Origin: a virus
Taxonomy: Duplodnaviria; Caudoviricetes
DNA length: 64,000 nt
Reading direction: 5' to 3' (one strand)
Virus record (IMG/VR): IMGVR_UViG_3300042864_000640
Location: 1,394-65,393 of that record
Positions within the stretch are counted from its first letter, which is position 1; the number at the start of each line of letters is the position of its first letter. Shown in pieces: positions 1 through 58,599 of the stretch. The position numbers were made by a program, and so were the translations under genes. Under the pieces are notes generated by a model that searched no databases, was not told the origin of the DNA, and was given only the letters and a program-made list of their open reading frames with translations.

Positions 1-299
1 ACCCTTATAAATGGATTCATAGTAGGACTGTGTTTACAAAGTGGGGTAGTGGTAATTTAGAACATCTTCGTAGAGAAATTGGTAAGGATGGATATAAGCA
101 ATTTTGGAGAAGAGAAGAGCCACCAAAGCATAGATATCTTCAAATTGTTACGGCTGATAAGAAAGAAAAGAAAGCAATTATGAAAACGTTCAAACACGAA
201 ATCAGACCATATCCAAAAGATACTCGAGCTTTCAACAAAGATATTCAAGTGTGGGAAACAATTGCACCTGAATCAGAAATAGATACCAAATTTTGGTAA
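1..299 (+). CDS. C-terminal fragment of a Mom-like (GNAT-fold) DNA adenine modification protein, truncated by the window edge
   Basis: Frame is open from base 3 (PYKWIHSRTVFTKWG...). It carries the HSRT...KHRY...PYPK motifs typical of C-termini of phage Mom-like proteins. Confidence 0.6.
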   Translation, partial: PYKWIHSRTVFTKWGSGNLEHLRREIGKDGYKQFWRREEPPKHRYLQIVTADKKEKKAIMKTFKHEIRPYPKDTRAFNKDIQVWETIAPESEIDTKFW

Positions 300-1554: not shown

Positions 1555-1576
1555 CATATTGATTATCAACCTGTTA
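1552..1576. repeat. 25-bp palindromic element (single copy)
   Basis: TAACATATTGATTATCAACCTGTTA; same family as the copies at 43231, 45816, 61222 and 63576. Confidence 0.8.
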
Positions 1577-1595
1577 TATAAAATATCCCTAATTA

Positions 1596-1628
1596 TTTGG
1601 TAATTTGGGATATTTTTCGTATCTTTAC
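1596..1628 (+). promoter_or_regulatory. Bacteroidetes-type primary-sigma promoter (representative copy)
   Basis: TTTGG ... TTTTCGTATCTTTA. The same element recurs near 6897, 10047, 25501, 26620, 30933, 43396, 46042, 47379, 51167, 51615, 51851, 52005, 54504, 55396, 58628, 61337 and 63790. Confidence 0.8.
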
Positions 1629-1711
1629 ATAGTAAACAATTTATAAAGTGTTGCTAAATGTTGGGTTACTATTACTCAATTGACCAACGCTTTCACATTA
1701 AAACATAAAAT

Positions 1712-3196
1712 ATGTATTTAAACTGCGAAAACGCCGAAAAACAATTCGGACAAACACAAGACCCAATATCACACAATGGTGATATTTCAGTTCAATTTTT
1801 AAAAGATGCACATGGTGTATCATTAGAAACCGGTGCTAGAGAGTACCAAAGAGAGAAAGTTGCAAGGTTAGATTGGAAGCAAGCAATTATTCTTACAATT
1901 CTTTCAAAGAGCTACGCTCGTATTCCACAAATTCACATTAGAGTAGAACCAACCGAAGGTGGTGGTTTCAGATTTGAAATCGTTGATGGACAACAACGTG
2001 TTAGTGCTCCATTAGATTTTATTGATGGTAAATTTAAATTACCAACGGATGATGATGCATATATCATAGATGGTATGGATTGTCGTGGTTGTGATATTAA
2101 AAAAATTAAAAGTAAATTTCCAAAACTATATTCTAAAATAATGGAATATCGTATATCATGTTTGTGGTATGAAAATTTAGAAGATGATATGGTTTCAGAT
2201 TTATTTGTAAACATATTGAATAATGTGAATGATATGAAAGAGCAGGAAATACGAAACGCTGTTCGTGGTTTGTTATCATCTTATATTCGTGATACCGCTA
2301 GGTTTGAAGAAATGCATGATTTATTTGAAAGACAAACTATTATCACCGATAAGAGAGGTAATAAGACTAAAGATGTACTTAAACATTTTTCACCATCATT
2401 TGCTTTAAAAGGTAGAATGGAAGTTGATGAATGGTTTTCTGAAATCATATTTTTGAAAAAGCACGGATTTGAAAATGGCGTAACTCCTGCCGCACTTACA
2501 AAGTGGGTTAAAGATGTACAAAGAGGTAGTGGCGATTTTACAAAAAAAGTTTTATTCAATAAATTTAAGAAAGAAGTAGATGAGTTATTAGATTTTTCTT
2601 ATAAAGTAATTACATCAGTTGAAAAAATACACAAAGATAAGCTAACACCTTGGCTATCTATGATACTTGTACTTTACGCAGATTCATTGAGAAATCAATC
2701 ATATGCGGTTGATGTAAAAACATATACAAAGAAGTTTTTTGAAATATACAGAAAATGGAGTAATACGAATGATAAGTTGTATATGAATGAAACGATGTTA
2801 AATGGTAATCAAATGCAACCATTCAATGAGTTATTTGGTGGTAAAAACAAAAATGCAATTGGTACAATTTGTTGGGTTCTTAATAAAGAAAAAGAAGCTG
2901 ATAAAAACCAATTTGGTGATGTTGAATCATTCGGCTTGTTAGCATTAGACCCCAAAGAAACATTTAGTGAAGCTCAAATCTTACAAAAATGGGAAGAGCA
3001 AGATGGTAAATGCTTTTATACGGGTGAAGAACTTGAAAGAAATGAATTGGCAGGAGACCATCACATTCCTAGAAGTTGGGGAATCGCTAAGGGTGGCGTT
3101 ACCGAATATAATAATTTGCGTGTAACTTCAAAATCTTTAAATTTGAAGAAAGGCGCTAGGCATGGTGATGAGTTTTTATCCGAATTAAAAAAATAA
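1712..3196 (+). CDS. DUF262 + C-terminal HNH nuclease (GmrSD/SspE-like)
   Basis: N-terminal YQR...W...IPQI...IVDGQQR (DUF262); C-terminal DHHIPRS..GG.T...NL.......N..KG (HNH). Confidence 0.8.
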   Translation: MYLNCENAEKQFGQTQDPISHNGDISVQFLKDAHGVSLETGAREYQREKVARLDWKQAIILTILSKSYARIPQIHIRVEPTEGGGFRFEIVDGQQRVSAPLDFIDGKFKLPTDDDAYIIDGMDCRGCDIKKIKSKFPKLYSKIMEYRISCLWYENLEDDMVSDLFVNILNNVNDMKEQEIRNAVRGLLSSYIRDTARFEEMHDLFERQTIITDKRGNKTKDVLKHFSPSFALKGRMEVDEWFSEIIFLKKHGFENGVTPAALTKWVKDVQRGSGDFTKKVLFNKFKKEVDELLDFSYKVITSVEKIHKDKLTPWLSMILVLYADSLRNQSYAVDVKTYTKKFFEIYRKWSNTNDKLYMNETMLNGNQMQPFNELFGGKNKNAIGTICWVLNKEKEADKNQFGDVESFGLLALDPKETFSEAQILQKWEEQDGKCFYTGEELERNELAGDHHIPRSWGIAKGGVTEYNNLRVTSKSLNLKKGARHGDEFLSELKK

Positions 3197-3199
3197 TAA

Positions 3200-4312
3200 A
3201 TGAATTTTTGGGAAAGTATAGATTATAATAAAGCAAGGAAAGTGTTGGTGATACCTAATATCACCAACTCTTCCAATATTGAAAAGGATTCGTTTGTGGA
3301 TGTTATATACAACCATATCAAAGGATTAGAATCGGAGGGTGAATTCTTTTGGAATATTATATTGCCACAGCCTGTTAAGAAATTAAATCTAATAAATGTG
3401 AAGCAGCATATACTTCAATTTTCAGGCGATATGATTAAGATGAGAACGTATCCGCCGGATATGAATCGTTTGTTGGAAACATTGGAATATGATGTAATAT
3501 ATTCTCATTTGCCTGATTGGCCGCAAGTTGGCAGATATAAGAACGATTTCAAAACCAATGTAATTGGATATTGCCATTGGTGGGAAATGAAATCTTGTAA
3601 TGCAGAAGATAGAAAAAACAAATGGAGATGGATGCCGATTGAACTTTTGGGTGTATCTCAAATGGAAACTTGCTTCCTAAATACACAAGAACAAAAAGAT
3701 AGAGTTTTAGAAGAAGCAAAATTATGGTTCAATGATTTGTTTATTCAAAAATTAAGTAGTATATTAGTAGTGTGGAATTTAGGAATAGATGTTACAAAAA
3801 TTATCGAATCGCCTAAACCAAAAGAAAAAGTTATTGTATTCAATCATAGAGCAGCTGCATATAAAGGATATCCATCATTTATTAAGTTGATGGAAGAGTA
3901 TAGAGGACGTAGACAAGATTTCAAAGTTTGGGTGCCTCAATTGGATGGTAAGCCTGAATTTAATTGGATTGATAATACCAAAGTAGCTAAGCACGATTAC
4001 TATAAGAAATTACAATCTTGCTCCGTTGGAATTCAAATGAGGCAGACTAACTATGGTTGGAGTGTAGCAGCTACCGATTGTATGATGAATGGAACTACTA
4101 TGATATTTCAGGAATCAGATTGTTACAAAGAGATAGACCCAAAAGGGTTGTTCTTTAAATATAAAAAAGATTTGTTTGATATGCTTGATAAAATATTAGA
4201 TGATGAAAATCATAGATTAGAATTATCAATAAAAGCAATTGAAAGAGCAAAGGAACTATCTGAAAACGATAGTAGGATGATTAAAATATTAAACGAAAAA
4301 CTAAGAGCTTAA
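3200..4312 (+). CDS. GT-B fold glycosyltransferase (possibly DNA-modifying)
   Basis: VFNHR...YKGY motif and C-terminal GT4-like nucleotide-sugar lobe (YGWSVAATDCMMNGT); abuts the DNA polymerase gene. Confidence 0.65.
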   Translation: MNFWESIDYNKARKVLVIPNITNSSNIEKDSFVDVIYNHIKGLESEGEFFWNIILPQPVKKLNLINVKQHILQFSGDMIKMRTYPPDMNRLLETLEYDVIYSHLPDWPQVGRYKNDFKTNVIGYCHWWEMKSCNAEDRKNKWRWMPIELLGVSQMETCFLNTQEQKDRVLEEAKLWFNDLFIQKLSSILVVWNLGIDVTKIIESPKPKEKVIVFNHRAAAYKGYPSFIKLMEEYRGRRQDFKVWVPQLDGKPEFNWIDNTKVAKHDYYKKLQSCSVGIQMRQTNYGWSVAATDCMMNGTTMIFQESDCYKEIDPKGLFFKYKKDLFDMLDKILDDENHRLELSIKAIERAKELSENDSRMIKILNEKLRA

Positions 4313-6873
4313 TGTATCAAAACATTTATTACGAAAGACAGAAAAATTTAATCCATCTATGGGATGATAAGAGTGGATATCAAACATTCCCATATCGAAA
4401 GTATGCATACAAACGAGATGCATATGGTGAATACCTTTCTATGTATGGTGATAAATTGAGTAAAGTTGGTAAATGGGAAAAAGAAGATGCCGAAGATTTA
4501 TTCGAATCAGATGTTCCCGAAACAACGAGAGTATTGGTAGATATATACGAAAACGATTTACCATCAAATGGACATAGAGTTCTTACATTTGATATTGAGG
4601 TAGAAATGATAACGGGTCTACCAAATACAAAAGATGCAAAGAATGAAATTACGGCAATTGCAGCACATGATGGAGCAACAAAACTCTATGATGTGTTCGT
4701 ATTAGATAAGGAGAGAAAAGTAAAGAACAAAGCCAAAAACTTTAATAAAGATGGTAGAGAAGTTACTCTTCATATATTTGATAATGAACGTAATCTATTA
4801 CAGGCATTTCTTAACTATTACGAAGAAGTAAATCCAACAATCCTAACGGGTTGGAATATTGATTTCTTTGATATTCCATATTTGTATAACCGATTAAAGA
4901 ATGTATGTGGCGAAGGACATGCTAAACGATTATCACCAATAGGACAGGCATTCTGGTCTCCATATAGAGAGAAGTTTAGTTTTGGTGGTGTATCCATTTT
5001 GGATTATATCAATCTATATAAAACTTACACATATACGTTAGAAGCATCTTATACTCTAAACTATATCGCTACCAAAGAATTGGGTAGAGGTAAGATTGAG
5101 TATGAAGGAAGTTTGGATGATTTATTCGAAAATGATTTAGAAAAGTTTATTGAGTATAACATTGTCGATGTGGACTTAGTTGTATCGATGGATGAGAAAC
5201 TTCAATTCATTGAATTATGTAGAGCCGTTTGTCACGCCGGATATGTACCATATGAGGATTACATATATTCATCGAAGTGGTTGGAAGGAGCTTGTTTAGG
5301 GTATCTTAAAAAGAAAGGATTGGTAGCAACAAATAAACCACGAGATAGGAAAGAAAGGATGCAGGCTCTTAGAGATAATAACCAAGAGAAGTTTATTGGA
5401 GCTTATGTAAAAGAACCTATCGTTGGTAAGTATGATTGGATATATGATTTGGATTTAACTTCACTATATCCATCAATCATTATGACTCTAAATATTTCGC
5501 CAGAAACTAAAGTTGGTAAGATTACAAATTGGGATGCCGAAGCCAATATTAGAGGATTGGATACGACATATAAGTTAGTTGGTAAAGATGGTGATACATA
5601 CGAATATACGACTCAGGAGTTAACGGAAGTTATCAAAGATAGTAACTTGGGTGTTGCAGCAAATGGGGTTCTATATACACAGGATAAGAAGGGTCTTATT
5701 GCTGATATCTTAAATGATTGGTTTGAAAAGCGTGTTGAGTTCAGAAAATTAGAAAAACAATATGGTGAAGCGGGTGATACGGAGAAATATGACTTTTATG
5801 CTAAAAGGCAGCTTGTTCAGAAGATTCTTCTTAATTCTATGTATGGTGTTCTTGGCCTTCCTGCCTTTCGGTTTTACGATATTGATAATGCAGAGGCAGT
5901 TACGGTTACGGGTCAAACTGTTATTAAGAAAACGGCGGAGATGGCAAATAGAAAATATTGGAAAGAATTAGGAACAACTGATGACTACAATGTTTATATT
6001 GATACGGATTCAATTTATATGATGGCAGAACCATTGGTAAAACATAGATACCCAGAATATAAAACATTTGATGAAAAGAGAATGGCAGTTGAGGTGGATA
6101 ATATTGCAACCGAAACACAAACATTCTTAAATTCATTCTATGATATGTTGGCTGAAAGATTCTTCTTTATTCCAAAAGAGAAACATAGATTTGAAATCAA
6201 AAAGGAGTATATCAGTAAAGCAGGATTTTGGGTAGCTAAGAAACGATACGCACAATGGATGGTATTAAAGAATGGTATTCCGTGTGATAAGTTAGATGTA
6301 AAGGGATTGGATGTAGTACGTTCATCATTCCCCAAAGCATTTCAGGACCAAATGAGTGCTATGTTGAAGGATATTCTAATGGGTAAAGATAATGAATACG
6401 TTGATACAAAACTATTAGCATTTAAAGCTAGTATGGCTACTTTGCCTGTTAATAAGATAGCAAAGGGTGGAGCAATTAAAGAGTTAAGTAAATATGATAA
6501 TGGTACTTGGAGAAAAGATAGTGGGTTATCAATTGCATCTTTTGAGAAAGGAACTCCGGCGCACGTTAAAGCTGGGATTACTTACAATCGATTATTGAAG
6601 TTCTTTAATGCACCATATAAGCACGAACCAATTAGAGATGGTGATAAAGTAAAGTGGGTATATCTTAAAAATAATCCATTGGGATTGGATACTGTGGCAT
6701 TTAAGGATTATAACGACCCTAAAGAAATTATGGATTTCGTAGAACAATATATTGATAGAGATAAATTATATGTATCGGATATGGAAAATAAGGTAGATGA
6801 TTTCTATACCGCACTTAAATGGCAAAAGGCTTCAACTGAAGCTCTAACTGCCAAAAAGTTTTTCTCATTTTAA
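4312..6873 (+). CDS. Family B DNA polymerase (T4 gp43-like)
   Basis: Exo FDIE and GWNIDFFD; polymerase DLTSLYPSII, KILLNSMYG, YIDTDS, KKRYA. Confidence 0.97.
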   Translation: MYQNIYYERQKNLIHLWDDKSGYQTFPYRKYAYKRDAYGEYLSMYGDKLSKVGKWEKEDAEDLFESDVPETTRVLVDIYENDLPSNGHRVLTFDIEVEMITGLPNTKDAKNEITAIAAHDGATKLYDVFVLDKERKVKNKAKNFNKDGREVTLHIFDNERNLLQAFLNYYEEVNPTILTGWNIDFFDIPYLYNRLKNVCGEGHAKRLSPIGQAFWSPYREKFSFGGVSILDYINLYKTYTYTLEASYTLNYIATKELGRGKIEYEGSLDDLFENDLEKFIEYNIVDVDLVVSMDEKLQFIELCRAVCHAGYVPYEDYIYSSKWLEGACLGYLKKKGLVATNKPRDRKERMQALRDNNQEKFIGAYVKEPIVGKYDWIYDLDLTSLYPSIIMTLNISPETKVGKITNWDAEANIRGLDTTYKLVGKDGDTYEYTTQELTEVIKDSNLGVAANGVLYTQDKKGLIADILNDWFEKRVEFRKLEKQYGEAGDTEKYDFYAKRQLVQKILLNSMYGVLGLPAFRFYDIDNAEAVTVTGQTVIKKTAEMANRKYWKELGTTDDYNVYIDTDSIYMMAEPLVKHRYPEYKTFDEKRMAVEVDNIATETQTFLNSFYDMLAERFFFIPKEKHRFEIKKEYISKAGFWVAKKRYAQWMVLKNGIPCDKLDVKGLDVVRSSFPKAFQDQMSAMLKDILMGKDNEYVDTKLLAFKASMATLPVNKIAKGGAIKELSKYDNGTWRKDSGLSIASFEKGTPAHVKAGITYNRLLKFFNAPYKHEPIRDGDKVKWVYLKNNPLGLDTVAFKDYNDPKEIMDFVEQYIDRDKLYVSDMENKVDDFYTALKWQKASTEALTAKKFFSF

Positions 6874-7661: not shown

Positions 7662-7970
7662 ATGGCAGAACAATTAGATTTATTTCCAGAAGAGAAATTA
7701 CAACAACAGGATGCAGGTAGTATTGGAGTACCTGAAGCAACCCCAATCTTAGATGCAGAATGGTGTTTTCAATTTTTTAATAATGAGCCGGTGGTATTTG
7801 CATTCTCAAATGAAGGCGAAACAGCTGCACCATTACAAATGAAAATTGAACCAACCGAAGGACAAGGATTGAACTTCCAACAAAATGGAATGGTATTCAG
7901 AGTGTTCCCAAGACCAATTTCGGAAGAAACAAAATTAGAAAGAAAAAAAGAAAATGAAAGTAAAGATTAA
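7662..7970 (+). CDS. Hypothetical protein
   Basis: Tightly packed ORF in the replication operon. Confidence 0.6.
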   Translation: MAEQLDLFPEEKLQQQDAGSIGVPEATPILDAEWCFQFFNNEPVVFAFSNEGETAAPLQMKIEPTEGQGLNFQQNGMVFRVFPRPISEETKLERKKENESKD

Positions 7971-11172: not shown

Positions 11173-12552
11173 ATGGCAAAAAAGAAGATTCTGTTACTTT
11201 CGGATGACCTTAGAATGACGAGTGGTATAGCTAATGTATCCAAACAATTAGTGTTGGGTACAGTAGATAAATACGATTGGGTTCAGTTAGGCGCAGCAAT
11301 TAAACATCCCGAAGCAGGGAAAGTTTTGGATTTGAATGATAGTGTTAGAGAGCAAACTGGCGTAAAGGATGCATTGGTTAAAATTTATCCATCGGATGGG
11401 TATGGTAATCCTGATATTATTCGTCAGTTATTAATGATTGAAAAGCCCGATGCTATTCTACACTTTACTGACCCGAGATATTGGTTATGGCTATATGATA
11501 TTGAGCATGAAATCCGCCAATCAGTTCCCCTTTTCTTCTATCATATTTGGGATGATTTACCAGACCCAAAATATAATCGAAATTATTACGAAAGTTGTGA
11601 TTGGATTGGGTGTATTTCAAAACAAACGTATGGTATTACCAAAAGAGTTTGGAGTTGGGATAAGGAAGCATATTGGACACCACCCGCTGATTGGCAAGTA
11701 AGCTATGTACCACACGGTATTAATGCAGATTTATATAAACCAGTAGAAGTTCCAAAGGAATTTAAACAATCTATTTTTGGTGATAAAGAATACGAATTTG
11801 TTCTATATTGGAATAATAGAAATATTCGTAGAAAACAACCAATGGATGCTATGTTGGCATTTGATAAATTTAGAGAAGCATTGCCTGAAGATAAGAGAGA
11901 TAAAGTTTGTATGGTAATGCACACTGCTCCGGTCGAAGAGCATGGTACTGATTTACCTACATTTATAGAACATTGTATTCCTGAATCTAATATTATATTT
12001 GCACCTAACAAATATACGGAGCAAGAATTAAACTATCTTTACAATATAGCTGATGTAACAATTAATATTGCATCTAATGAAGGATTTGGATTAGCAACTG
12101 CTGAATCAGTAATGGCTGGAACACCTATCATTGTAAACGTAACAGGCGGTATGCAAGACCAATGTGGATTTAGAGAAAGAGGTACAGGTAAATTATTAAC
12201 TGCAGAAGATTATGTTGAGATTGGTTCTTTACACGATAGACATAAAAAAGCAGGCGTAGTATATGGTGATTGGGTTAAACCAATTTGGCCAGTTCGTTCA
12301 ACAACGGGTTCAGTTCCTACTCCATATATTTTCGATGATAGAGTTGATTTTGAAGATGTTGCTCCTTTGATTATGGATTGGTATAAAATGGGTAGAGAAG
12401 AAAGAAAGATAGCTGGACTAAAGGGTAGAAATTTTTTCTTAGGAGAAGGAAAATTAAGTAAGGAAGCAATGTGTGATTCATTAGTTGAAGGTATGGAAGG
12501 GGCATTTGAAAATTGGAAACCAAAACAAAAATTTAAGTTAATAGAGTTATAA
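11173..12552 (+). CDS. Glycosyltransferase (GT4-like)
   Basis: YVPHG, NRNIRRK, NEGFGL..AE...AG.P. Confidence 0.9.
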   Translation: MAKKKILLLSDDLRMTSGIANVSKQLVLGTVDKYDWVQLGAAIKHPEAGKVLDLNDSVREQTGVKDALVKIYPSDGYGNPDIIRQLLMIEKPDAILHFTDPRYWLWLYDIEHEIRQSVPLFFYHIWDDLPDPKYNRNYYESCDWIGCISKQTYGITKRVWSWDKEAYWTPPADWQVSYVPHGINADLYKPVEVPKEFKQSIFGDKEYEFVLYWNNRNIRRKQPMDAMLAFDKFREALPEDKRDKVCMVMHTAPVEEHGTDLPTFIEHCIPESNIIFAPNKYTEQELNYLYNIADVTINIASNEGFGLATAESVMAGTPIIVNVTGGMQDQCGFRERGTGKLLTAEDYVEIGSLHDRHKKAGVVYGDWVKPIWPVRSTTGSVPTPYIFDDRVDFEDVAPLIMDWYKMGREERKIAGLKGRNFFLGEGKLSKEAMCDSLVEGMEGAFENWKPKQKFKLIEL

Positions 12553-12553
12553 T

Positions 12554-13822
12554 ATGAAACCAACATTAGTATTTCAAGCACCGGTAGCAACAAGAAGTGG
12601 ATATGGTGACCACGCGAGAGATTTATTACATTCTCTTTATAAATTGGATAAATTTGAAATTAAAGTTATTAGTACTCGTTGGGGACAAACTCCAATGGAT
12701 GCTCTTAATTATGATAGACCATTTCATAAATGGGTAGTAGATAATATCATACCCGGCATTCAACAAAAGCCGGATATATACATTCAGGTTACTGTACCAA
12801 ATGAATTTCAACCATTGGGACATTATAACATCGGAATTACTGCAGCAATCGAAACAACGCATTCTCCATTAGATTGGATACATGGTTGTAATAGAATGGA
12901 CTTAATCATAGTACCATCGGAACATTCTAAAAAGAGTTTAATTGATAGTGTATATAATGAAGCAGATAAACAAACTAACCAACTTATCAGACAATTTAAA
13001 ATCGAAAAACCAATTGAAATTTTATTTGAAGGATTTGATGAATTTGATTTCGGAACTGATGAGGTGGCGCATGTAACCGAATTAGACCAAATCAAAGAAG
13101 ATTTTGCATTCTTATTCGTAGGACATTGGTTAAGAGGCGATTTGGGAGAGGACAGAAAGAATGTGGGAATGATGATTAAAACATTCGCAATGGCTTTTAA
13201 AAACGAAAAGGTTAAACCCGCATTGGTTCTTAAAACATCATCAGCTGGATTTAGTGTTATTGATAGAGAAACCACAATTAAAAAAATCAAACAGGTATTA
13301 GGAAAAGATTATAAATCAGTTCCAATTTATCTTTTACATGGTGATTTAACTCCATCGCAAATGAATGGATTATATGAGCATAAAAAGGTAAAGGCAATGT
13401 TAAACTTTACAAAGGGTGAAGGATTTGGTAGACCACTATTGGAATTTAGTTTAACAGGTAAGCCTGTAATTGTATCCAATTGGAGTGGTCATATCGATTT
13501 CTTAAAGAAAGGTGCAGTATTATTGGAGGGTGAGTTAAAGCCAGTACACGAATCGGCAGCTGACCAATTCCTTTTAAAAGAAGCACAATGGTTTAATGTA
13601 AATGTTTCAAAAGCATTACCAATTATCAAAGATGTTTATAAAAATTATGATAAATATAAATCTGAAGCATCTAAGTTAGGTAAGCATAATTTGGCAACAT
13701 TTAGTTTAGCAAAAATGACAGAAGGATTTGATGGTATTCTAAATCAATATGGTATTTATACTAAAATACAACCAAAGTTTCAACAACTTCAGTTACCTAA
13801 ATTAAAAAGTTTAAATAAATAA
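12554..13822 (+). CDS. Glycosyltransferase (GT4-like)
   Basis: SGYG, VPSEH, GEGFGRPLLE. Confidence 0.88.
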   Translation: MKPTLVFQAPVATRSGYGDHARDLLHSLYKLDKFEIKVISTRWGQTPMDALNYDRPFHKWVVDNIIPGIQQKPDIYIQVTVPNEFQPLGHYNIGITAAIETTHSPLDWIHGCNRMDLIIVPSEHSKKSLIDSVYNEADKQTNQLIRQFKIEKPIEILFEGFDEFDFGTDEVAHVTELDQIKEDFAFLFVGHWLRGDLGEDRKNVGMMIKTFAMAFKNEKVKPALVLKTSSAGFSVIDRETTIKKIKQVLGKDYKSVPIYLLHGDLTPSQMNGLYEHKKVKAMLNFTKGEGFGRPLLEFSLTGKPVIVSNWSGHIDFLKKGAVLLEGELKPVHESAADQFLLKEAQWFNVNVSKALPIIKDVYKNYDKYKSEASKLGKHNLATFSLAKMTEGFDGILNQYGIYTKIQPKFQQLQLPKLKSLNK

Positions 13823-51195: not shown

Positions 51196-51580
51196 GGGGG
51201 TGCCTGGTTTTGACAGGTACGATGAGTTAGTGATTTGATGCAAGCCGGGTTAGATGGAAATCCGTAAATACCTATCGAACAATAAACGCAGAAGAATTAT
51301 CTTCATTCACCTTCGAAGATGCTATGGCATTCGTAGGTGCTGATTACGCTGTAGCAGCCTAATCAAAACAATAGGGCCGGTGCACATACGCCTAGTAACA
51401 GAAGTGTTTACAAAGAGCTGGTTTTTGGTTCAGGCTCTAAAAGTTGAACCATCTAAGTTTAATAGTAGCAACGGGGAATTAGAAACTATTTATTTTGTTT
51501 GTTAAGAAAAACAAACTAAGCTTGTGAACGATGGTTATTAAATCCGTATTTGGACAAGGGTTCGACTCCCTTCACCTCCA
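51196..51580 (+). ncRNA. ssrA: tmRNA
   Basis: 5' GGGGGTG...TTGAC and 3' GGTTCGACTCC...CACCTCCA with a G3-U70 pair; tag ORF at 51288-51362 reads AEELSSFTFEDAMAFVGADYAVAA*. Confidence 0.95.
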
Positions 51581-51662
51581 CAAAAAAAATATTTTGTATT
51601 TTGGATTTTTTTCCGTATATTTGTATATATATAAATACAACGTAAGTTCTTTAAAATTATAT

Positions 51663-51734: not shown

Positions 51735-52089
51735 CAAATCTACACTACTAGAATTTTGTGAAAGTAGTATTCAGACGGTATCCTTAACAGGGCTTGGATG
51801 AGGTTCACAAAAAATATTTACAAATAAATTAGGAAATGTGAAAATGTTTTCGTATATTTGTAACAACAAAATGGGATGGTGGTTGAAGCCAACAACTAAT
51901 AAAACCGATTGTGTGACGCCCAGTCATATTTACTTATGACACGCTAAAAAGCCGGACACCACTAAAACATTTTGAAAAAAAATTTGGAAGTTTGAAAAAC
52001 TTTTCGTATCTTTACAATAAGTTTGAAACTTATAGGTGATGAAAGATACTCGGTATTCAAACGAAGAAGTTCTTTAAATTATTGAAAAG

Positions 52090-52958
52090 ATTATACATAG
52101 TAGATTCGTTCTACATAGTATAACAACGGCCGCCTATGGTCGTGAAATAAACTACGAAAGTAGGATAAAGTGATTGTATTGGTTAATACGATTGCGGCTA
52201 CTCCCCCGTAAGGGAGATAAGCTTGAGTAGGCAAATGGGATATCATTGTGGCTTTGTATGTGAGGGTAACACTTTAGCAGAAGAGTTGGAATGACTGGGC
52301 AACCATAGATTGTTCAGTTGAGGTAGGAATACCAATAAGAATAACCCATAGGATTATTGTAAGAAGTAAGGACTTAATCTCTCCTTATCATTGCGTGATT
52401 CAATACCAAAGTGGTCTTAAAATCAAGCTATACGAAAGGTAGTAAGATAAGACTGTGTACGCGTGGTGGCGTTACTATCCTTCAATGTAGGACACCAATC
52501 CTTATTGATGAAGATGACTTGAAGTATGGTGTTAGGGATAACACATCGGGTAGTTAAGTATTCTGTTGTTCAAAAGATAACGGAGCTTGTGGCAAACCAC
52601 TACCTGAATCCATCTATAAACCAAAACTCATTTTTGATAGGACATCAAAATCTTAAATTAAAAATAAGCATGAGTGTTTGCCAGTTTCAGACGAAAGGTG
52701 TGTACATAGTAGGGAGTTGTTCCCTGCCACGATACCTTCGCAAGAGGTCTGTGATTCTACTGAAAGGTTTCTAATTCCGCAAGAACTAATCAGGCTGCGA
52801 GGCTTGAAGAAAATGATTAAGTAGAGAGTAGTTTGAAACTCTATGAGTGGTTGGCATTACTAACCCACATTGAATTGGTACATCTCAAAAGGATGTGGAA
52901 ACGGAAGGAAACAAATAATCTTTCTAAAGCTGGTTCGCCGAAAGGAGTATTCTCATCC
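52090..52958 (+). ncRNA. Large structured ncRNA, probably GOLLD
   Basis: ~870 nt, GC-enriched, no credible ORF, many GNRA-capped hairpins, located among tRNAs. The 3' half has TTGCCAG..CAGACGAAAGGTGTG and AGTAGTTTG...GAGTGGTTGGCATTACTAACC, resembling GOLLD conserved blocks as I recall them. Ends are approximate. Confidence 0.7.
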
Positions 52959-52971
52959 TTTTTTTTTATAA

Positions 52972-53040
52972 GCGGTGTTAGTGTAACAGTAGCACACCTA
53001 TCGTCCAGATAGGAGGAGGGGGGCAGCACCTTTCACCGCT
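52972..53040 (+). tRNA. Non-canonical tRNA-Gly(TCC)-like RNA
   Basis: GCGGTG/CACCGC acceptor + U73; D-loop without GG; G33; T-loop GGCAGCA. Confidence 0.75.
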
Positions 53041-53140
53041 CTAAGTAATTTAATGAGGCTAGTATTAACCGGAGCATGACTTGACGTGGCGTATTTTGAA
53101 ATTAAATTACTATATTTTAAATATTAGATATATATTAACA

Positions 53141-53385: not shown

Positions 53386-53457
53386 GCGAATATCGTATAA
53401 TGGTCATTACTCCTTCCTTCCAAGTAGGAGATGTAGGTTCGATTCCTACTATTCGCT
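53386..53457 (+). tRNA. tRNA-Gly(TCC), canonical
   Basis: Cloverleaf, T-loop TTCGATT. Confidence 0.92.
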
Positions 53458-53463
53458 CAAATT

Positions 53464-55865: not shown

Positions 55866-56396
55866 ATGATGAGAAGAAAAATAATATTCATAGATGTAGA
55901 TGGTCCTTTGGCTTGGGCAACATGGGATGATGGTTGGGTAACTATTAATGAAGATTCTACCAAAGAATTTGGAATACCATATGCTTGGGTTAAAGAAGAT
56001 TGTGAGGCACTACAAAAGATATGCAATGAAACAAACGCTGAGTTAGTAGTTAGTTCAGATTGGAAGATGCACTTTTCATTTTTACAACTGAAACAAATAT
56101 TTCTACACTATGGTATTACTGCCAGAGTATTGGATATAACCACACATCAAAATTTGTGGAATAAGATGAGTAGAACATCTTTAGAACATGAGAGAGCATT
56201 GCAAATTGCTAAATGGGCTAAAGATAATAAAATATCTAATTGGATAGCAATTGATGATTTAAAATTATCAGACCCGTTCAAATGGATGAAGCCTCGTATT
56301 CCAATGTGGAGACATGTATCGGTAGATGGCGACCACGGATATGGCGGGAGATTGCGAGATAAGGTCGATGAGTGTATTGAAAAATTAAATAGATGA
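55866..56396 (+). CDS. HAD domain protein (Swiss-Army-knife RNA-repair type)
   Basis: FIDVDGPL, VVSSDW, WIAIDD. Confidence 0.8.
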   Translation: MMRRKIIFIDVDGPLAWATWDDGWVTINEDSTKEFGIPYAWVKEDCEALQKICNETNAELVVSSDWKMHFSFLQLKQIFLHYGITARVLDITTHQNLWNKMSRTSLEHERALQIAKWAKDNKISNWIAIDDLKLSDPFKWMKPRIPMWRHVSVDGDHGYGGRLRDKVDECIEKLNR

Positions 56397-57046
56397 AACT
56401 AAATTTAAATAAAGGACAGAGGTTATGGTTTACAAGTGATACCCACTATAACCATGCCAATATATGTTCATCTACAACTCAATGGTTAGACCCCGTAACA
56501 ATAAGAGAGTTTAAATCATTAGAGCATATGAACGCCCACCTTGTTGGTAACATCAACGAATTGGTCGGACAAGATGATATTCTATTTCATTTAGGTGATT
56601 GGAGTTTTGGTGGGTTTGAACAAATACAAAAGTTCAGAGACCAAATCGTATGTAAGAATGTTCATCTAATATTAGGTAATCACGACCATCACATTGCTAA
56701 TAACAAAGATGGTATTCAATCCTTATTCAGTTCAATAAACAAATATTTGGATTTGATTGTGAAGTATAATGTGGGTACTCCATTGCAGGGTGAAGCTCGT
56801 TTTGCTTTAATGCACTTTCCAATAGCAAGTTGGGATAATATGGCTAGAGGAGCAATCCATTTACATGGACACGTTCACTTTAATCCATCAATGAGATTAC
56901 AACAAGGTAAGATGATGGATGTGGGATGTGAAGGAAATAACTTATACCCAATTGATATGAGTGAAATATTATCCATTATGAGAGATAGACCTGTAAAAAG
57001 TTTGTTTAGTAAAGACCATCACGAAATAGTTGAAAATTATAGATAA
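56393..57046 (+). CDS. Calcineurin-like phosphoesterase
   Basis: SDTHYNH, LGDW, LGNHD, HFP, HLHGHVH, DVG. Confidence 0.9.
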   Translation: MKLNLNKGQRLWFTSDTHYNHANICSSTTQWLDPVTIREFKSLEHMNAHLVGNINELVGQDDILFHLGDWSFGGFEQIQKFRDQIVCKNVHLILGNHDHHIANNKDGIQSLFSSINKYLDLIVKYNVGTPLQGEARFALMHFPIASWDNMARGAIHLHGHVHFNPSMRLQQGKMMDVGCEGNNLYPIDMSEILSIMRDRPVKSLFSKDHHEIVENYR

Positions 57047-57459
57047 TGAATAAGATATTAACATTAGTAAGAGGATTGCCAGGAAGTGGTAAATCAACAT
57101 TCGCCAATTTTATTTGGAATGATTACGCAATATGTGAAGCTGATAAGTTTTTCTACGATAAAGAAGGAAACTACAACTATGATGGAACAAAGATAACGCA
57201 GGCACATAAATGGTGTAGAGAGCAAGTGGAAACTCGTATGAAAGATAACGAAGCTAATCCACAATTCTATCCTGAAATTGTAGTATCAAATACATTCACA
57301 AAGGAATGGGAGATGGCTGAATACTTTGATTTAGCTAAAAAATATGGCTATACTGTATTCACTATTATAGTAGAGAATAGACATGGTGGAGTAAATCAGC
57401 ACGGAGTTCCTGCTGAAAAAATAGAACAAATGAAAAATAGATTTGAAGTAAAATTATAG
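57046..57459 (+). CDS. P-loop polynucleotide kinase-like (AAA_33)
   Basis: RGLPGSGKST, EAD.FF, VSNTF, HGVP. Confidence 0.85.
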   Translation: MNKILTLVRGLPGSGKSTFANFIWNDYAICEADKFFYDKEGNYNYDGTKITQAHKWCREQVETRMKDNEANPQFYPEIVVSNTFTKEWEMAEYFDLAKKYGYTVFTIIVENRHGGVNQHGVPAEKIEQMKNRFEVKL

Positions 57460-57462
57460 AAT

Positions 57463-58599
57463 ATGGAAAATAATAATTCAGTTTGCTATATGGCAACAAT
57501 CAATGAAATCAAACCAATTGAAGGAGCTGATAACATTGAATTAGCAGTAGTTGGTGGTTGGAATTGTATTGCCCAAAAGGGTGTACAAAAAGTAGGCGAT
57601 GTAGTTATCATTGCTACAACTGATGCCGTTATACCGGAAGCCTTATCCGATGAAATAGGAGTAACTAGCTATCTTCGTAAAGGTGGTAGAGTTAGGACTG
57701 TAAAGTTAAGAGGTACATATTCAGAATGTTTAATCATTCCAGATAAATACTTACATGGTAGAGCTACTATCGGAGATTGGGATTTGAAAGATGGTTCTGA
57801 TTGTATGCACATCTTTAATATCTTTAAATATGAGCCACCTGTTAAGATGGTTCAGCTATCGAATGGTAAGAAGATTCGTTATCAAACAAATCCAAACTTC
57901 CACGTTTACTATAAGTTTCCTAACTTAAAGAATGTGCCGGATATGTTTACCGAAGAAGATGAAGTAGAAATTACTCGTAAAATTCACGGAACAAATGCAA
58001 GATATGGTATTATCAAAAAGATTAGATTATCATTTTGGGATAATGTTAAGGACTTCTTTGGATTTGGTGATAAATGGAATTGGTACGAATTCGTAGTTGG
58101 TTCACATAATGTAGAGAAGGGCTCTGATTCTAATGGATTCTATGATACAAATGTTTGGTATGATATTGAAAAGAAATATGATATCAAAAATAAATTGTGG
58201 GAGTATGTTAAATCCGGTGCAGATATCGGCGATGGTATTACCTTATATGGTGAGATTTACGGCGCCGGAATTCAAAAGGGATATGATTATGGGTTGAAGG
58301 ATATTGAGTTCGTAGGATTCGATGTAAAGGAGAATGGTGAGTATTTAAGTCCTAATGTAGCTAACTTACAAATTTCTGAAGTATTGGGATTACCATATGT
58401 TGATGTTTTACATTTTGGTAATTGGTCACAAGAAGTACAAGATAAATATGTATTCAATAATTTCATTCCAAATACAAAAGTGCCAGAGGAAGGAATTGTA
58501 ATCAAACATTATACAGGTGTTAGGGAGAAGGTAGCAAAAGTTATCAATCCCGATTATTTAATCTTCGCTGAAAAACATAACGTTGGCGATTCGCATTAA
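57463..58599 (+). CDS. RNA ligase, DRB0094/Rnl5-like
   Basis: N-terminal OB (PIEGADNIE, LRG..SE); KIHGTN, YGE, FD, EGIV, KVINP.Y. Confidence 0.9.
   Translation: MENNNSVCYMATINEIKPIEGADNIELAVVGGWNCIAQKGVQKVGDVVIIATTDAVIPEALSDEIGVTSYLRKGGRVRTVKLRGTYSECLIIPDKYLHGRATIGDWDLKDGSDCMHIFNIFKYEPPVKMVQLSNGKKIRYQTNPNFHVYYKFPNLKNVPDMFTEEDEVEITRKIHGTNARYGIIKKIRLSFWDNVKDFFGFGDKWNWYEFVVGSHNVEKGSDSNGFYDTNVWYDIEKKYDIKNKLWEYVKSGADIGDGITLYGEIYGAGIQKGYDYGLKDIEFVGFDVKENGEYLSPNVANLQISEVLGLPYVDVLHFGNWSQEVQDKYVFNNFIPNTKVPEEGIVIKHYTGVREKVAKVINPDYLIFAEKHNVGDSH

What the first reader, a model, noticed from the sequence alone, without database searches (positions are those of the whole stretch)
52972..53040. tRNA-Gly that looks built to avoid the ribosome: possible glycine donor for the Mom-like DNA modifier
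Seen: all GlyRS identity elements are kept (G1-C72, C2-G71, G3-C70, U73, anticodon TCC in a perfect 5-bp stem). Features for translation are lost: G33 instead of U33, no GG in the D-loop, T-loop GGCAGCA instead of TTCRA, and a G-U-rich T stem. A normal tRNA-Gly(TCC) is present 350 nt away. Known: staphylococcal non-proteinogenic tRNA-Gly show similar D/T-loop changes. As I recall, Mu Mom was reported to use Gly-tRNA as its donor. Inferred: a dedicated, EF-Tu-evading Gly-tRNA feeds the Mom-like enzyme at 1-299 or another aminoacyl transferase.
Basis: partly seen in the sequence, partly recalled or inferred. Interest (0 to 1): 0.75.

Follow-up and report, generated by a model that had tools for sequence, protein, structure and literature searches.

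The report
Private glycine tRNA for phage Mom
This odd glycine tRNA is a conserved member of a viral family of tRNA-like genes that look unfit for protein synthesis and that travel with, and often sit right beside, the phage enzyme Mom, which uses glycine-charged tRNA to modify DNA.

Summary
Window 52972-53040 (+) is a 69-nt cloverleaf with the bacterial Gly identity set (G1-C72, C2-G71, G3-C70, U73, C35, C36). It also has G33, no GG in the D-loop, a non-TΨC T-loop and a G·U-rich T stem. ARAGORN and Rfam tRNA both miss it.

It is not a decaying pseudogene. It belongs to a family of at least 53 distinct viral sequences with strong stem covariation, frozen Gly identity pairs and an anticodon loop closed by C32-G38. 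Its odd D/T loops are one state of a three-state co-varying elbow (12 of 12).

- The record has two tandem Mom genes.
- In unrelated small phages, mom lies within 271 nt or less of such a gene in 32 loci.
- Mom occurs in 51 of 85 carrier records, against 2 of 50 carriers of the same tRNA body with ordinary A38.
- Close relatives that swapped out the Mom cassette also lost the modules.

Exceptions exist: three near-complete Mom-less carriers.

Charging, EF-Tu evasion and donor activity are untested. I found no prior description of this family.

The parts
52972..53040 (+). Closed-loop tRNA-Gly(UCC)-like gene, here called the 'module'. It keeps Gly identity (G1-C72, C2-G71, G3-C70, U73, C35, C36). 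It has G33 with C32/G38 able to close the loop to 5 nt, and the A18/G19 with GCRR-type alternative elbow.
   Evidence: (68.5 bits to model R1, of which it was a training member).
52546..52959 (+). GOLLD RNA, conserved 3' domain. The whole RNA spans about 52100-52959, judged from what the RNA contigs cover.
   Evidence: Rfam RF02032, 301.3 bits, E = 3e-85, model positions 1-416. RNA contigs of 4 runs cover about 52097-52948.
52960..52971 (+). 12-nt T-rich linker (T8-ATAA) between the weak terminal GOLLD hairpin and the module. Relatives have an 8-13-nt A/T-rich linker ending in ATAA, and the T-run is not conserved.
   Evidence: Hairpin -6.2 kcal/mol with z = -0.09. Not called as a terminator, and no promoter-like site between GOLLD and the module.
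53386..53458 (+). Ordinary tRNA-Gly(UCC) of the phage tRNA array, with the open loop CUUCCAA (C32.A38), a GG D-loop and a TTCGATT T-loop.
   Evidence: ARAGORN, Rfam 63 bits, alignment to R1 at 53.9 bits, fold. Orthologues occur in the sister clade.
3..299 (+). C-terminal 98 codons of the second of two tandem Mom-family genes, the proposed user of the module. The rest of the gene and the first paralogue lie just upstream of the window in the same record, about 52.7 kb from the module.
52023..52050 (+). Promoter-like site upstream of GOLLD (TTGAAA-16-GATACT). It is the likely start of a GOLLD-plus-module primary transcript. This is a consensus match only.
   Evidence: RNA contig cover begins at about 52097-52145.
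53044..53111 (+). Conserved long hairpin element in the 'second slot' after the module. Function unknown; it is context and not part of the tRNA-like gene.
   Evidence: Fold -13.3 kcal/mol. Shared with L007, L232 and the sister clade, with a compensatory TTTAAT/ATTAAA to TTTGAT/ATCAAA change.

Best explanation
The element is a functional, non-decoding tRNA-Gly paralogue. It is made by the phage, probably from the GOLLD transcript, then cut out and given CCA like a tRNA. The host GlyRS charges it with glycine through the retained identity set. It is kept out of translation because C32-G38 closes its anticodon loop to 4-6 nt, position 33 is not U, and its elbow and T stem are remodelled. The resulting private pool of Gly-tRNA serves the phage's two Mom enzymes, which transfer glycine to N6 of adenine in double-stranded phage DNA without draining, or competing with, the tRNA-Gly that translation needs. 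SHOWN here: the structure, family membership, covariation, frozen identity pairs, the co-varying alternative elbow, and genomic linkage and co-variation with mom. ESTABLISHED elsewhere: Mom uses Gly-tRNAGly and discriminates against Gly-tRNAAla. INFERRED: processing, charging, exclusion from EF-Tu and the ribosome, and use by Mom.
For: (1) Family and structure. A3 holds 24 distinct sequences: 97.2% of cells paired against 77.8% in shuffles, 13 of 21 pairs with double changes, covariation 0.582 against 0.209 (0 of 500 shuffles), and slid controls 0.11-0.14. (2) Selection for Gly identity rather than decoding. Pairs 1-72, 2-71 and 3-70 are GC 24/24, CG 23/24 and GC 23/24, while pairs 4-7 covary freely. 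In 53 distinct sequences, pair 2 is CG in 52 and pair 3 is GC in 52 (G1 and U73 were imposed by my parser). The bacterial Gly identity set is U73, G1-C72, C2-G71, C35, C36 (PMC9976931, passages). Loops vary (CGTCCAG, CATCCAG, CCTCCAG, CTTCCAG, C-ATTCCA-G, CATCCG, ATTCCT) but always keep CC, and 51 of 53 have C...G ends. MFE folds close them to a 6-bp stem with a 5-6-nt loop, while the normal tRNA-Gly stays open. (3) Not decay. D-loop 18/19 and the T-loop co-vary in three states: GG with UUCRA 34/34, GA with UUURA 5/5, and AG with GCRR 12/12. The window has the third state. Its sub-lineage of 5 sequences is 79-96% identical, against 79-90% for the GOLLD 3' domain, and G103 shows a G.U to U-A double change in the T stem. 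(4) Mom link. The record has two Mom genes. Mom is present in 7 of 8 module-bearing GOLLD phages that are at least 90% complete, against 0 of 44 GOLLD records without modules. In G003 versus G025, which are 90-98% collinear, exactly the Mom pair is swapped for another cassette and exactly the two modules are deleted. G026 shares both derived states although it is the most distant of the four genomes. A tRNA-pattern scan blind to Mom found 85 tRNA-like carriers, 51 with Mom, and 8 chance loci, 0 with Mom. Mom lies within <=271 nt in 32 loci, in three arrangements. Those genes score 70-74 bits to a model built only from GOLLD-phage modules. The control with the same body but A38 gave Mom in 2 of 50 records and 0 of 11 near-complete ones. 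Fisher p = 7e-12, inflated because the records are related. By distinct sequence, 36 of 53 occur in at least one Mom+ record, and 9 of 12 for the window's CGTCCAG class. The cultured Psychrobacter phage vB_PmaS_Y8A has two tandem Gly-identity tRNA-like units starting 8 nt after its mom stop codon. (5) Biochemical plausibility. Mom transfers Gly from Gly-tRNAGly, all three E. coli isoacceptors work, and Gly-tRNAAla does not (PMC13219725). (6) No FemAB or Acetyltransf_6 family was found in 5 genomes, while control genomes ring.
Against: No biochemical step was tested. Three near-complete carriers lack Mom. G019 (221 kb, 100%, C33) is Mom-negative even with a clade-specific profile at E<=1, and it is also the one sequence with U2.G71. 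L224 (48 kb, 100%, C33) lacks Mom. L264 (164 kb, 90%) has the same AACAGTA/G33/GCAAATC type as the window and lacks Mom. Nine further carriers, all <=52% complete, show 0 of 9 Mom. Many Mom phages have no such gene: G113, G114, G115 and G126 have no model hit at E<=0.001, and so do Polaribacter phage P12002L and Roseobacter phage CRP-902. Mu Mom works with host tRNA. In the window's record Mom is about 52.7 kb from the module, and the module's fixed neighbour is GOLLD rather than mom. A related strain carries a copy with the anticodon arm deleted, and a sister clade keeps only an acceptor/T-arm minihelix, so part of the element may serve another role. A closed 5-nt loop might itself hinder GlyRS recognition of C35/C36. 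Many records are near-duplicates and related, so the counts overstate the number of independent events.
Confidence: 0.62

Rival explanations
1. It is an RNA-processing handle for GOLLD. The tRNA-like fold after GOLLD exists to recruit RNase P, RNase Z or the CCA-adding enzyme so that the GOLLD 3' end (or the downstream transcript) is matured, as with mascRNA after MALAT1 (recalled). On this view Gly identity is a leftover of ancestry and the Mom link is indirect.
For: A tRNA-like element occupies the same slot, 8-13 nt after GOLLD, in 13 of 19 GOLLD sequence clusters. This includes lineages whose element has lost Gly identity (L005/L043, L036/L057). The sister clade keeps only an acceptor/T-arm minihelix. 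A related strain has the anticodon arm deleted (record 14). No promoter-like site lies between GOLLD and the module.
Against: It does not explain frozen pairs 1-3 beside freely covarying pairs 4-7, or the conserved CC in the loop. It does not explain why the same family stands alone, with its own promoter-like region and terminator, next to mom in GOLLD-less small phages. It does not explain the G38 versus A38 contrast. It does not explain the clean loss of the modules in G025/G026, whose GOLLD is 98% identical to G003's and is retained. A handle role could still coexist with a donor role.
Confidence: 0.12
2. It is a decoy or evasion tRNA. The altered anticodon loop makes it resistant to, or a sponge for, host factors that target tRNA-Gly or Gly-tRNAGly, such as anticodon nucleases or TacT-type GNAT toxins.
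For: Phage tRNAs with anticodon-loop changes that evade host nucleases are published (PMC10264068; search listing and start of abstract only). TacT recognises U73 plus G71, and both are conserved here (PMC9976931 passages). The island also holds a tmRNA and an RNA heal-and-seal gene set.
Against: Evasion tRNAs must still decode, and 4-6-nt closed loops and 6- or 8-nt loops should not. A normal tRNA-Gly is present beside it. Nothing in this model predicts adjacency to mom, or joint loss with mom.
Confidence: 0.1
3. It acts on mom expression or genome mechanics rather than as a donor. For example, it could be a structured terminator or antisense element for convergent mom, or a tRNA-derived attachment site.
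For: In 26 of 32 loci the gene is convergent with mom and shares a terminator region.
Against: In 3 loci it follows mom on the same strand, and in the Psychrobacter phage two units follow mom. In GOLLD phages it lies 8-64 kb from mom. An attachment-site copy should match a normal host tRNA, not carry non-U33 closed loops. This model does not need Gly identity to be conserved.
Confidence: 0.05
4. It is a decaying tRNA-Gly pseudogene, a duplicate of the array's tRNA-Gly drifting after loss of function.
For: General tRNA finders reject it. It has a 1-nt-short T-loop and a 6-bp acceptor stem. A related strain has a 34-nt internal deletion. The modules are dispensable in G025/G026.
Against: All four stems are kept with compensatory changes. 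It is as conserved as GOLLD. Its unusual D/T-loop state recurs in 12 of 12 sequences of that class across two phage groups. It is not a recent duplicate of the array gene, because the D arm and body differ.
Confidence: 0.04
5. It is an ordinary decoding tRNA-Gly(UCC) with tolerated oddities.
For: The anticodon UCC, A37, the cloverleaf and the Gly identity are all present.
Against: It has G33 and C32-G38 closure. Relatives have 6- and 8-nt loops. A canonical tRNA-Gly(UCC) lies 346 nt away. The association with Mom is specific to G38 and absent for A38.
Confidence: 0.04

Closest known systems
Non-proteinogenic tRNA-Gly of Staphylococcus (glycine donors for FemXAB peptidoglycan bridge synthesis)
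   Same: Both are tRNA-Gly(UCC) paralogues that keep Gly identity but have altered D/T-loop and T-stem features. Both coexist with a normal tRNA-Gly and are tied to a non-ribosomal aminoacyl-tRNA transferase of the GNAT/Fem type. The review states that the S. aureus species lost EF-Tu determinants at pairs 49-65 and 51-63 (PMC9976931 passages). The window copy has G.U at 49-65, 50-64 and 51-63.
   Different: This family is viral rather than cellular, and its proposed acceptor is DNA adenine via Mom rather than peptidoglycan. Its hallmark is a closed anticodon loop (C32-G38, non-U33, or 6/8-nt loops), which is not part of what I read about the staphylococcal species. I have no evidence of common descent. 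Details of the staphylococcal D/T loops are recalled, not checked here.
Phage Mu Mom and its use of host Gly-tRNAGly (Silva et al., Nat Commun 2026, PMC13219725)
   Same: The enzyme family is the same (PF25680). The published co-substrate is Gly-tRNAGly, with discrimination against tRNA-Ala.
   Different: Mu relies on host tRNA. The abstract, passages, Discussion and mining methods I read mention no phage-encoded tRNA; the supplements were not seen. In this case the phage appears to bring its own specialised tRNA.
tRNAs associated with GOLLD RNA (near tRNA islands; tRNAs embedded in the GOLLD linker, e.g. tRNA-Phe in J13/15 of Mycolicibacterium)
   Same: GOLLD sits in a tRNA island downstream of a tRNA-Met and has a tRNA-type gene physically attached to its transcription unit.
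   Different: The module abuts the 3' end rather than the internal linker. It is a dedicated Gly-type, non-decoding paralogue. In the passages I read, neither the structure paper nor the review describes a conserved 3'-adjacent tRNA-Gly-like element.
Phage tRNAs with anticodon-loop substitutions that evade host anticodon nucleases (eLife 2023, PMC10264068)
   Same: Both are phage-encoded tRNAs whose anticodon loops depart from the host consensus.
   Different: Those tRNAs remain decoders with 7-nt loops (from the search listing and abstract start, plus recall). The loops in this family are closed or of the wrong length, and the genes track mom.

Membership tests
Canonical elongator tRNA (Rfam RF00005 / ARAGORN definition) | Detected by general tRNA models | tested here: not met
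   No RF00005 match at gathering score or at E<=10. ARAGORN finds nothing at default, 90% or 80% thresholds.
Canonical elongator tRNA (Rfam RF00005 / ARAGORN definition) | Four-arm cloverleaf with 7/4/5/5-bp stems | tested here: met
   The arms are parsed, with a 6-bp acceptor stem. Family covariation supports all four helices.
Canonical elongator tRNA (Rfam RF00005 / ARAGORN definition) | U33 and an open 7-nt anticodon loop (non-Watson-Crick 32-38) | tested here: not met
   The loop is CGTCCAG, with G33 and with C32/G38 able to pair. The MFE gives a 6-bp stem and a 5-nt loop.
Canonical elongator tRNA (Rfam RF00005 / ARAGORN definition) | G18-G19 in the D-loop and T54-Psi55-C56 in the T-loop | tested here: not met
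   The D-loop is AACAGTA and the T-loop is GCAGCA. G19 and C56 are kept, while positions 18, 54 and 55 are changed.
Bacterial tRNA-Gly as a GlyRS substrate | Identity set U73, G1-C72, C2-G71, C35, C36 (PMC9976931) | tested here: met
   All are present in the window copy and are near-invariant in the family.
Bacterial tRNA-Gly as a GlyRS substrate | Is actually aminoacylated with glycine | not testable with these tools
   This needs a charging assay or charged-tRNA sequencing.
Mom-linked closed-loop tRNA-Gly-like family (defined here) | Body: GCG...CGC-U acceptor, D arm GTGT-7nt-GCAC, C32...UCC...G38 | tested here: met
   It scores 68.5 bits to R1 (training member). Independent members that were not used in training score 70-78 bits.
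Mom-linked closed-loop tRNA-Gly-like family (defined here) | A Mom-family gene in the same genome | tested here: met
   There are two Mom genes in the record. Family-wide, 51 of 85 carrier records have Mom, against 2 of 50 for the A38 control.
Mom-linked closed-loop tRNA-Gly-like family (defined here) | Serves as the glycyl donor for Mom | not testable with these tools
   Inferred from linkage together with the published Mom chemistry.
Staphylococcus-type non-proteinogenic tRNA-Gly | Weakened EF-Tu determinants in T-stem pairs 49-65 and 51-63 | tested here: inconclusive
   The window has G.U at 49-65, 50-64 and 51-63. The family has G.U at 50-64 in 21 of 24 sequences. No affinity was measured or predicted.
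Staphylococcus-type non-proteinogenic tRNA-Gly | Common descent with the staphylococcal genes | not tested
   No staphylococcal sequence was fetched. The likeness is functional analogy only.
GOLLD-embedded tRNA | tRNA located inside the GOLLD linker (J13/15) and part of the GOLLD RNA | tested here: not met
   The module starts 13 nt after model position 416 of 416 of RF02032. It lies 3' of the RNA rather than inside it.
tRNA pseudogene | Unconstrained drift: stems broken, no conservation beyond the neutral rate | tested here: not met

The most novel reading that the evidence does not exclude
Phages that momylate their DNA have evolved a private glycyl carrier. This is a widespread viral family of ribosome-incompetent, closed-anticodon-loop tRNA-Gly RNAs that co-evolve with Mom as an enzyme-cosubstrate pair. 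Such a pair could be orthogonal to host translation. In lake megaphage-like lineages the carrier is produced from the 3' end of the GOLLD transcript. This would be the first tRNA dedicated to DNA modification.
Probability: 0.5. Interest if true: 0.9.

Novelty: new variant of a known kind. Interest (0 to 1): 0.85.

Why it matters
Mom's dependence on Gly-tRNAGly was only recently established, and the authors assumed the enzyme scavenges host tRNA.

If phages encode a dedicated, non-decoding glycyl carrier for Mom, three things follow. It would be the first tRNA specialised for DNA hypermodification. It would extend the 'non-proteinogenic tRNA' concept from bacterial cell-wall synthesis to viruses. 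It would explain a class of 'broken-looking' phage tRNA genes that standard tools miss or mislabel.

It also offers a natural enzyme-tRNA pair that may be insulated from translation, which would be useful for engineering. The simple sequence signature (Gly identity plus C32-G38 closure) could be used to annotate such genes.

The family gives one concrete functional partner for genes next to GOLLD RNA, whose own role is unknown.

A cultured system, Psychrobacter phage vB_PmaS_Y8A, makes the idea directly testable.

Tried and rejected
- **General tRNA detection:** Rfam at E<=10 and ARAGORN at relaxed thresholds find nothing at the site.
- **Close relatives among cultured or deposited phages:** blastn and megablast gave only a 240-nt GOLLD piece and shared tRNAs.
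- **Exact 17-mer of the anticodon arm:** 4 loci were returned. Three were protein-coding chance hits and one (L074) was a true homologue.
- **RNA evidence for the module itself:** four metatranscriptome runs cover GOLLD heavily, but the bins over the module have little or no contig cover. tRNA-sized RNAs are poorly captured and contigs cannot show ends, so I draw no conclusion about the module's expression, its processing, or whether it is part of the stable GOLLD RNA. Raw reads were not available.
- **Sister clade (L088-L100, L111, L112):** no Mom in 15 records, but all are <=65% complete, so this is only suggestive.
- **Nine further carriers:** 0 of 9 have Mom, but all are <=52% complete. 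In complete relatives Mom lies 8-64 kb upstream of GOLLD, which would often fall outside these contigs.
- **G007 (L055):** the contig ends inside GOLLD, so its lack of Mom is uninformative.
- **AAA-ATPase anchor for G019:** using the gene to find a 'cassette site' failed because the synteny is lineage-specific.
- **Longer relatives of the non-Gly post-GOLLD elements:** the search returned only the same 4 fragments.
- **Other aminoacyl-tRNA transferases:** FemAB and Acetyltransf_6 were not found, apart from one sub-threshold 15-bit hit in G006.
- **Cultured Polaribacter P12002L and Roseobacter CRP-902:** neither has an annotated tRNA near mom or a model hit at E<=0.01.
- **Errors of mine, corrected:**
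  - The cloverleaf filter was too strict. I took 58 loci for chance matches, having expected about 50 by chance. Re-parsing and the covariance model showed that 85 of the 93 scan hits are real tRNA-like genes and only 8 are chance.
  - The intended 'chance-match control' was therefore not clean. Ten of its 30 records had Mom, and all ten carry model-positive genes. I replaced it with the A38 control.
  - My first statement that 'about 19 of 70' loci had an ARAGORN call in the slot was loose. At default thresholds it is 13 of 70 at +112 to +119. With inspection and relaxed thresholds it is 23 loci plus the window.
- **Subsampling:**
  - I scanned 50 of the 80 Mom loci kept (itself 80 of at least 556), choosing mainly the longer contigs, so 30 were not scanned.
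  - I scanned the first 50 of the 90 A38 loci.
  - Alignment A3 leaves out the three CATCCG-loop sequences, which MAFFT shifted in A1, and L048, which has a long D-loop insertion. G122 is misaligned by one column in the anticodon stem, which lowers the apparent support.
- **Not used:** Complex prediction, structure prediction, the protein-homology searches, and the genome contigs and metagenome-contig scans.
Full report
**What is at the site.**
Window 52972-53040 (+) reads as a 69-nt cloverleaf.
- Acceptor stem GCGGTGT/CACCGC (6 bp, beginning G1-C72, C2-G71, G3-C70), with discriminator U.
- D stem GTGT/GCAC with D-loop AACAGTA.
- A perfect 5-bp anticodon stem with loop CGTCCAG (G33, anticodon UCC, A37).
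- Variable loop AGGA.
- T stem GGGGG/CCTTT with three G·U pairs, and T-loop GCAGCA.

General tRNA finders reject the element: ARAGORN at default, 90% and 80% thresholds, and Rfam RF00005 even at E<=10. The strand nevertheless folds well (-25.6 kcal/mol, z = -3.0).

- The element begins 13 nt after a full-length match to GOLLD RNA (RF02032, 52546-52959, 301 bits).
- It lies inside a phage island with a tmRNA, 18 tRNAs and an RNA repair gene set.
- The window is part of a 65-kb fragment of a viral record.
- Fetching the 1.4 kb upstream of the window showed that the 'Mom-like' ORF at 1-299 is the end of the second of two tandem Mom-family genes (PF25680, E about 1e-42 each; PHROG 1384).

**A conserved family.**
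- A GOLLD core motif retrieved 70 viral loci. They form 19 clusters at 90% identity, and in 13 of those clusters a tRNA-like element occupies the same slot 8-13 nt after GOLLD, sometimes with a second copy about 75 nt further on.
- Most have a canonical T-loop and a GG D-loop, and many have an encoded CCA. Their anticodon loops are abnormal: CGTCCAG (G33), CCTCCAG (C33), C-ATTCCA-G, CATCCG or ATTCCT.
- On 24 distinct sequences the cloverleaf is strongly supported. Cells paired are 97.2% against 77.8% in shuffles, 13 of 21 pairs carry changes on both sides, and covariation is 0.582 against 0.209 (0 of 500 shuffles) and 0.11-0.14 for slid partners.
- Within the acceptor stem, pairs 1-72, 2-71 and 3-70 are frozen (24/24, 23/24, 23/24), while pairs 4-7 covary freely.
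- With the invariant U73 and the CC of the loop, this is exactly the bacterial glycine identity set (PMC9976931, passages).
- Selection therefore preserves recognition by GlyRS but not a decoding-competent loop. Nearly all members have C32 and G38, and thermodynamic folds close the arm to a 6-bp stem with a 5-6-nt loop. The ordinary tRNA-Gly genes of the same phages read CUUCCAA and stay open.

**The window's copy is an alternative design and not a wreck.**
- Across 53 distinct family sequences, D-loop positions 18/19 and the T-loop co-vary in three states: GG with UUCRA (34/34), GA with UUURA (5/5), and AG with a GCRR-type loop (12/12). Two sequences are odd.
- The window has the third state. 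So do L009, L007, L248 slot 1 and G103 among GOLLD phages, and seven distinct sequences of unrelated small phages.
- The five GOLLD-phage members are 79-96% identical to one another, as conserved as the GOLLD 3' domain beside them (79-90%). G103 shows a G·U to U-A double change in the T stem.
- In L248 this type sits directly upstream of a canonical-elbow G33 copy.

**The Mom link.**
Mu Mom transfers glycine from Gly-tRNAGly to N6 of adenine in dsDNA, all three E. coli isoacceptors work, and Gly-tRNAAla does not (PMC13219725; abstract, passages and Discussion read). I ran the co-occurrence test in several ways.

1. *GOLLD phages.* Among module-bearing GOLLD phages, 10 of 26 records have Mom, and 7 of 8 of those at least 90% complete. 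None of the 44 GOLLD records without modules has Mom, but these are other clades and mostly fragments.
2. *A natural experiment.*
   - G003 and G025 are collinear at 90-98% identity over 16 kb.
   - In G025, exactly the two Mom genes are replaced, from the same start codon, by a weakly PLP-enzyme-like gene plus a weakly DNA-methylase-like gene. Exactly the two modules, 8 kb away, are deleted.
   - There is a third difference, an 0.8-kb insertion upstream of GOLLD.
   - G026 shares both derived states although it is the most distant of the four genomes in every shared segment. G003 and G006 have both Mom and modules.
3. *Starting from Mom.* I scanned 50 of 80 retrieved Mom-bearing contigs. All 5 of those at least 90% complete have a model hit. 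This added G102, G122, G103 and G123.
4. *Blind to both GOLLD and Mom.*
   - A pattern for the family's D arm plus a C-N-UCC-A-G loop found 93 stretches.
   - After I corrected an over-strict filter, 85 are tRNA-like genes and 8 are chance matches.
   - Mom is present in 51 of the 85 and in 0 of the 8.
   - The largest new group (19 distinct sequences in 39 loci, loop CATCCAG) consists of stand-alone genes with promoter-like and terminator sequences on contigs of 4-30 kb. Complete genomes in this group are 28-34 kb.
   - In 32 loci mom lies within 271 nt or less: 26 convergent, 3 with the tRNA gene just downstream of mom on the same strand, and 3 overlapping on opposite strands.
   - In the six loci of this type without mom, the gene is 12-247 nt from a contig end.
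   - These Mom proteins are only 24-31% identical to the window's. Their tRNA genes still score 70-74 bits against a model built only from GOLLD-phage modules.
5. *Control.* The same tRNA body with the ordinary A38 gives Mom in 2 of 50 records, and in 0 of 11 that are at least 90% complete, although the model confirms the genes. Fisher p is 7e-12 for all records and 1e-4 for near-complete genomes (11 of 14 against 0 of 11). Both are inflated because many records are related.
6. *By distinct sequence.* Thirty-six of 53 occur in at least one Mom-positive record, and 9 of 12 for the window's loop class.
7. *A cultured phage.* Psychrobacter phage vB_PmaS_Y8A has two tandem 68-69-nt units starting 8 nt after its mom stop codon. 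Each has a 7-bp acceptor stem with the Gly identity pairs, U73, an encoded CCA and a closed arm with a 5-nt UCC-containing loop. The two copies differ by compensatory changes.

**Evidence against, and limits.**
- Nothing biochemical was tested.
- Three near-complete carriers lack Mom.
  - G019 (100% complete) is Mom-negative also with a clade-specific profile at E<=1. Its module is the one with U2·G71.
  - L224 is 48 kb and 100% complete.
  - L264 (164 kb, 90% complete) has the same elbow and loop type as the window.
- Nine further carriers are Mom-negative but at most 52% complete.
- Mom phages without any such gene are common, so the RNA is not required by Mom in general.
- In the window's own genome the module is tied physically to GOLLD and lies about 52.7 kb from mom.
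- A sister clade keeps only an acceptor/T-arm minihelix after GOLLD.
- One RNA-run contig from a related strain bridges GOLLD and the downstream region with the module's anticodon arm deleted. A processing-handle role may therefore coexist with, or in some lineages replace, the donor role.

**Transcription.**
There is no promoter-like site between GOLLD and the module. The terminal GOLLD hairpin is weak and the T-run is not conserved in relatives. Co-transcription with GOLLD followed by tRNA-type processing is the simplest reading, but it is an inference. RNA contigs of four runs from four studies cover GOLLD at great depth. They say nothing reliable about the module.

**Comparison with what is known, and novelty.**
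- The closest analogue is the set of non-proteinogenic tRNA-Gly species that feed FemXAB in staphylococci (PMC9976931 passages). The logic is the same, but this is a virus, the acceptor is DNA, and the signature is a closed loop.
- GOLLD papers note nearby tRNA islands and tRNAs embedded in the linker, not a dedicated 3'-adjacent Gly-type element (passages).
- The Mom paper attributes supply to host tRNA and late expression. Its main text has no passage on tRNA genes near mom homologues, and I could not see its supplements.
- The searches 'momylation' with 'phage-encoded tRNA' (0 papers) and 'non-proteinogenic tRNA' with 'tRNAGly' and 'bacteriophage' (2 reviews) found no prior description. Within these limits the family and its link to Mom appear to be unreported.

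**Verdict.**
My confidence that it is a dedicated glycyl donor for Mom is 0.62, and the interest score is 0.85.

Noticed in passing
window 52100-52959: GOLLD RNA of this phage lineage is held in 18 RNA runs from freshwater, riverine and estuary metatranscriptomes (35-44% of the sampled words of a 1.5-kb query). In 4 laid runs from 4 studies it is covered by contigs at summed depths in the thousands.
   Followed up: partly
window 53044-53111: A conserved hairpin of about 68 nt sits in the slot where relatives carry a second module. It is shared with L007, L232 and the sister clade, with a compensatory change in its long stem. Its function is unknown.
   Followed up: partly
L088-L100, L111, L112 (about 15-55 nt after the GOLLD 3' end): The sister clade has a 40-nt minihelix after GOLLD: an acceptor-like stem plus a canonical T arm (TTCGATT loop), with no anticodon arm and no Gly identity. 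No Mom was found in its 15 incomplete records.
   Followed up: partly
L078 (G025) 11692-13702, against L077 (G003) 3403-4957: There is a cassette swap at an identical start codon. The two Mom genes are exchanged for a 255-aa protein with a weak PLP-dependent-enzyme match and a 410-aa protein with a weak N6/N4 DNA-methylase match, possibly an alternative DNA-modification system.
   Followed up: partly
L304 2144-2284 (Psychrobacter phage vB_PmaS_Y8A, OQ059336.1, about 7786-7926): Two unannotated tandem tRNA-like units with Gly acceptor identity and encoded CCA lie directly downstream of the mom homologue of a cultured phage.
   Followed up: partly
G221 (L290) and G224 (L299): The Mom matches in these two records contain 10 and 6 in-frame TGA codons, which suggests phages that read TGA as a sense codon. 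Both also carry a family tRNA-like gene.
   Followed up: no
L048 9863-9956 (G021): This module has an insertion of about 24 nt that forms its own hairpin inside the D-loop. The rest is intact, and the genome is Mom-positive.
   Followed up: no
L283 1193-1457: Three tandem family copies (two with the CTTCCAG loop and one with C-ATTCCA-G) sit on a 67-kb contig that is 29% complete and shows no Mom in the part held.
   Followed up: no
window 328-3196: Directly after the Mom pair come a DruA-like protein (PF14236, E = 1e-22) and a protein with a sub-threshold GmrSD_N match. This is a cluster of DNA-modification or anti-defence flavour.
   Followed up: no
window 51196-51581 and 55866-58599: The phage encodes a tmRNA (tag ending in AA) and a four-gene RNA heal-and-seal set (HAD_SAK_2, metallophosphoesterase, AAA_33 kinase, RNA ligase). 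They flank the tRNA island.
   Followed up: no
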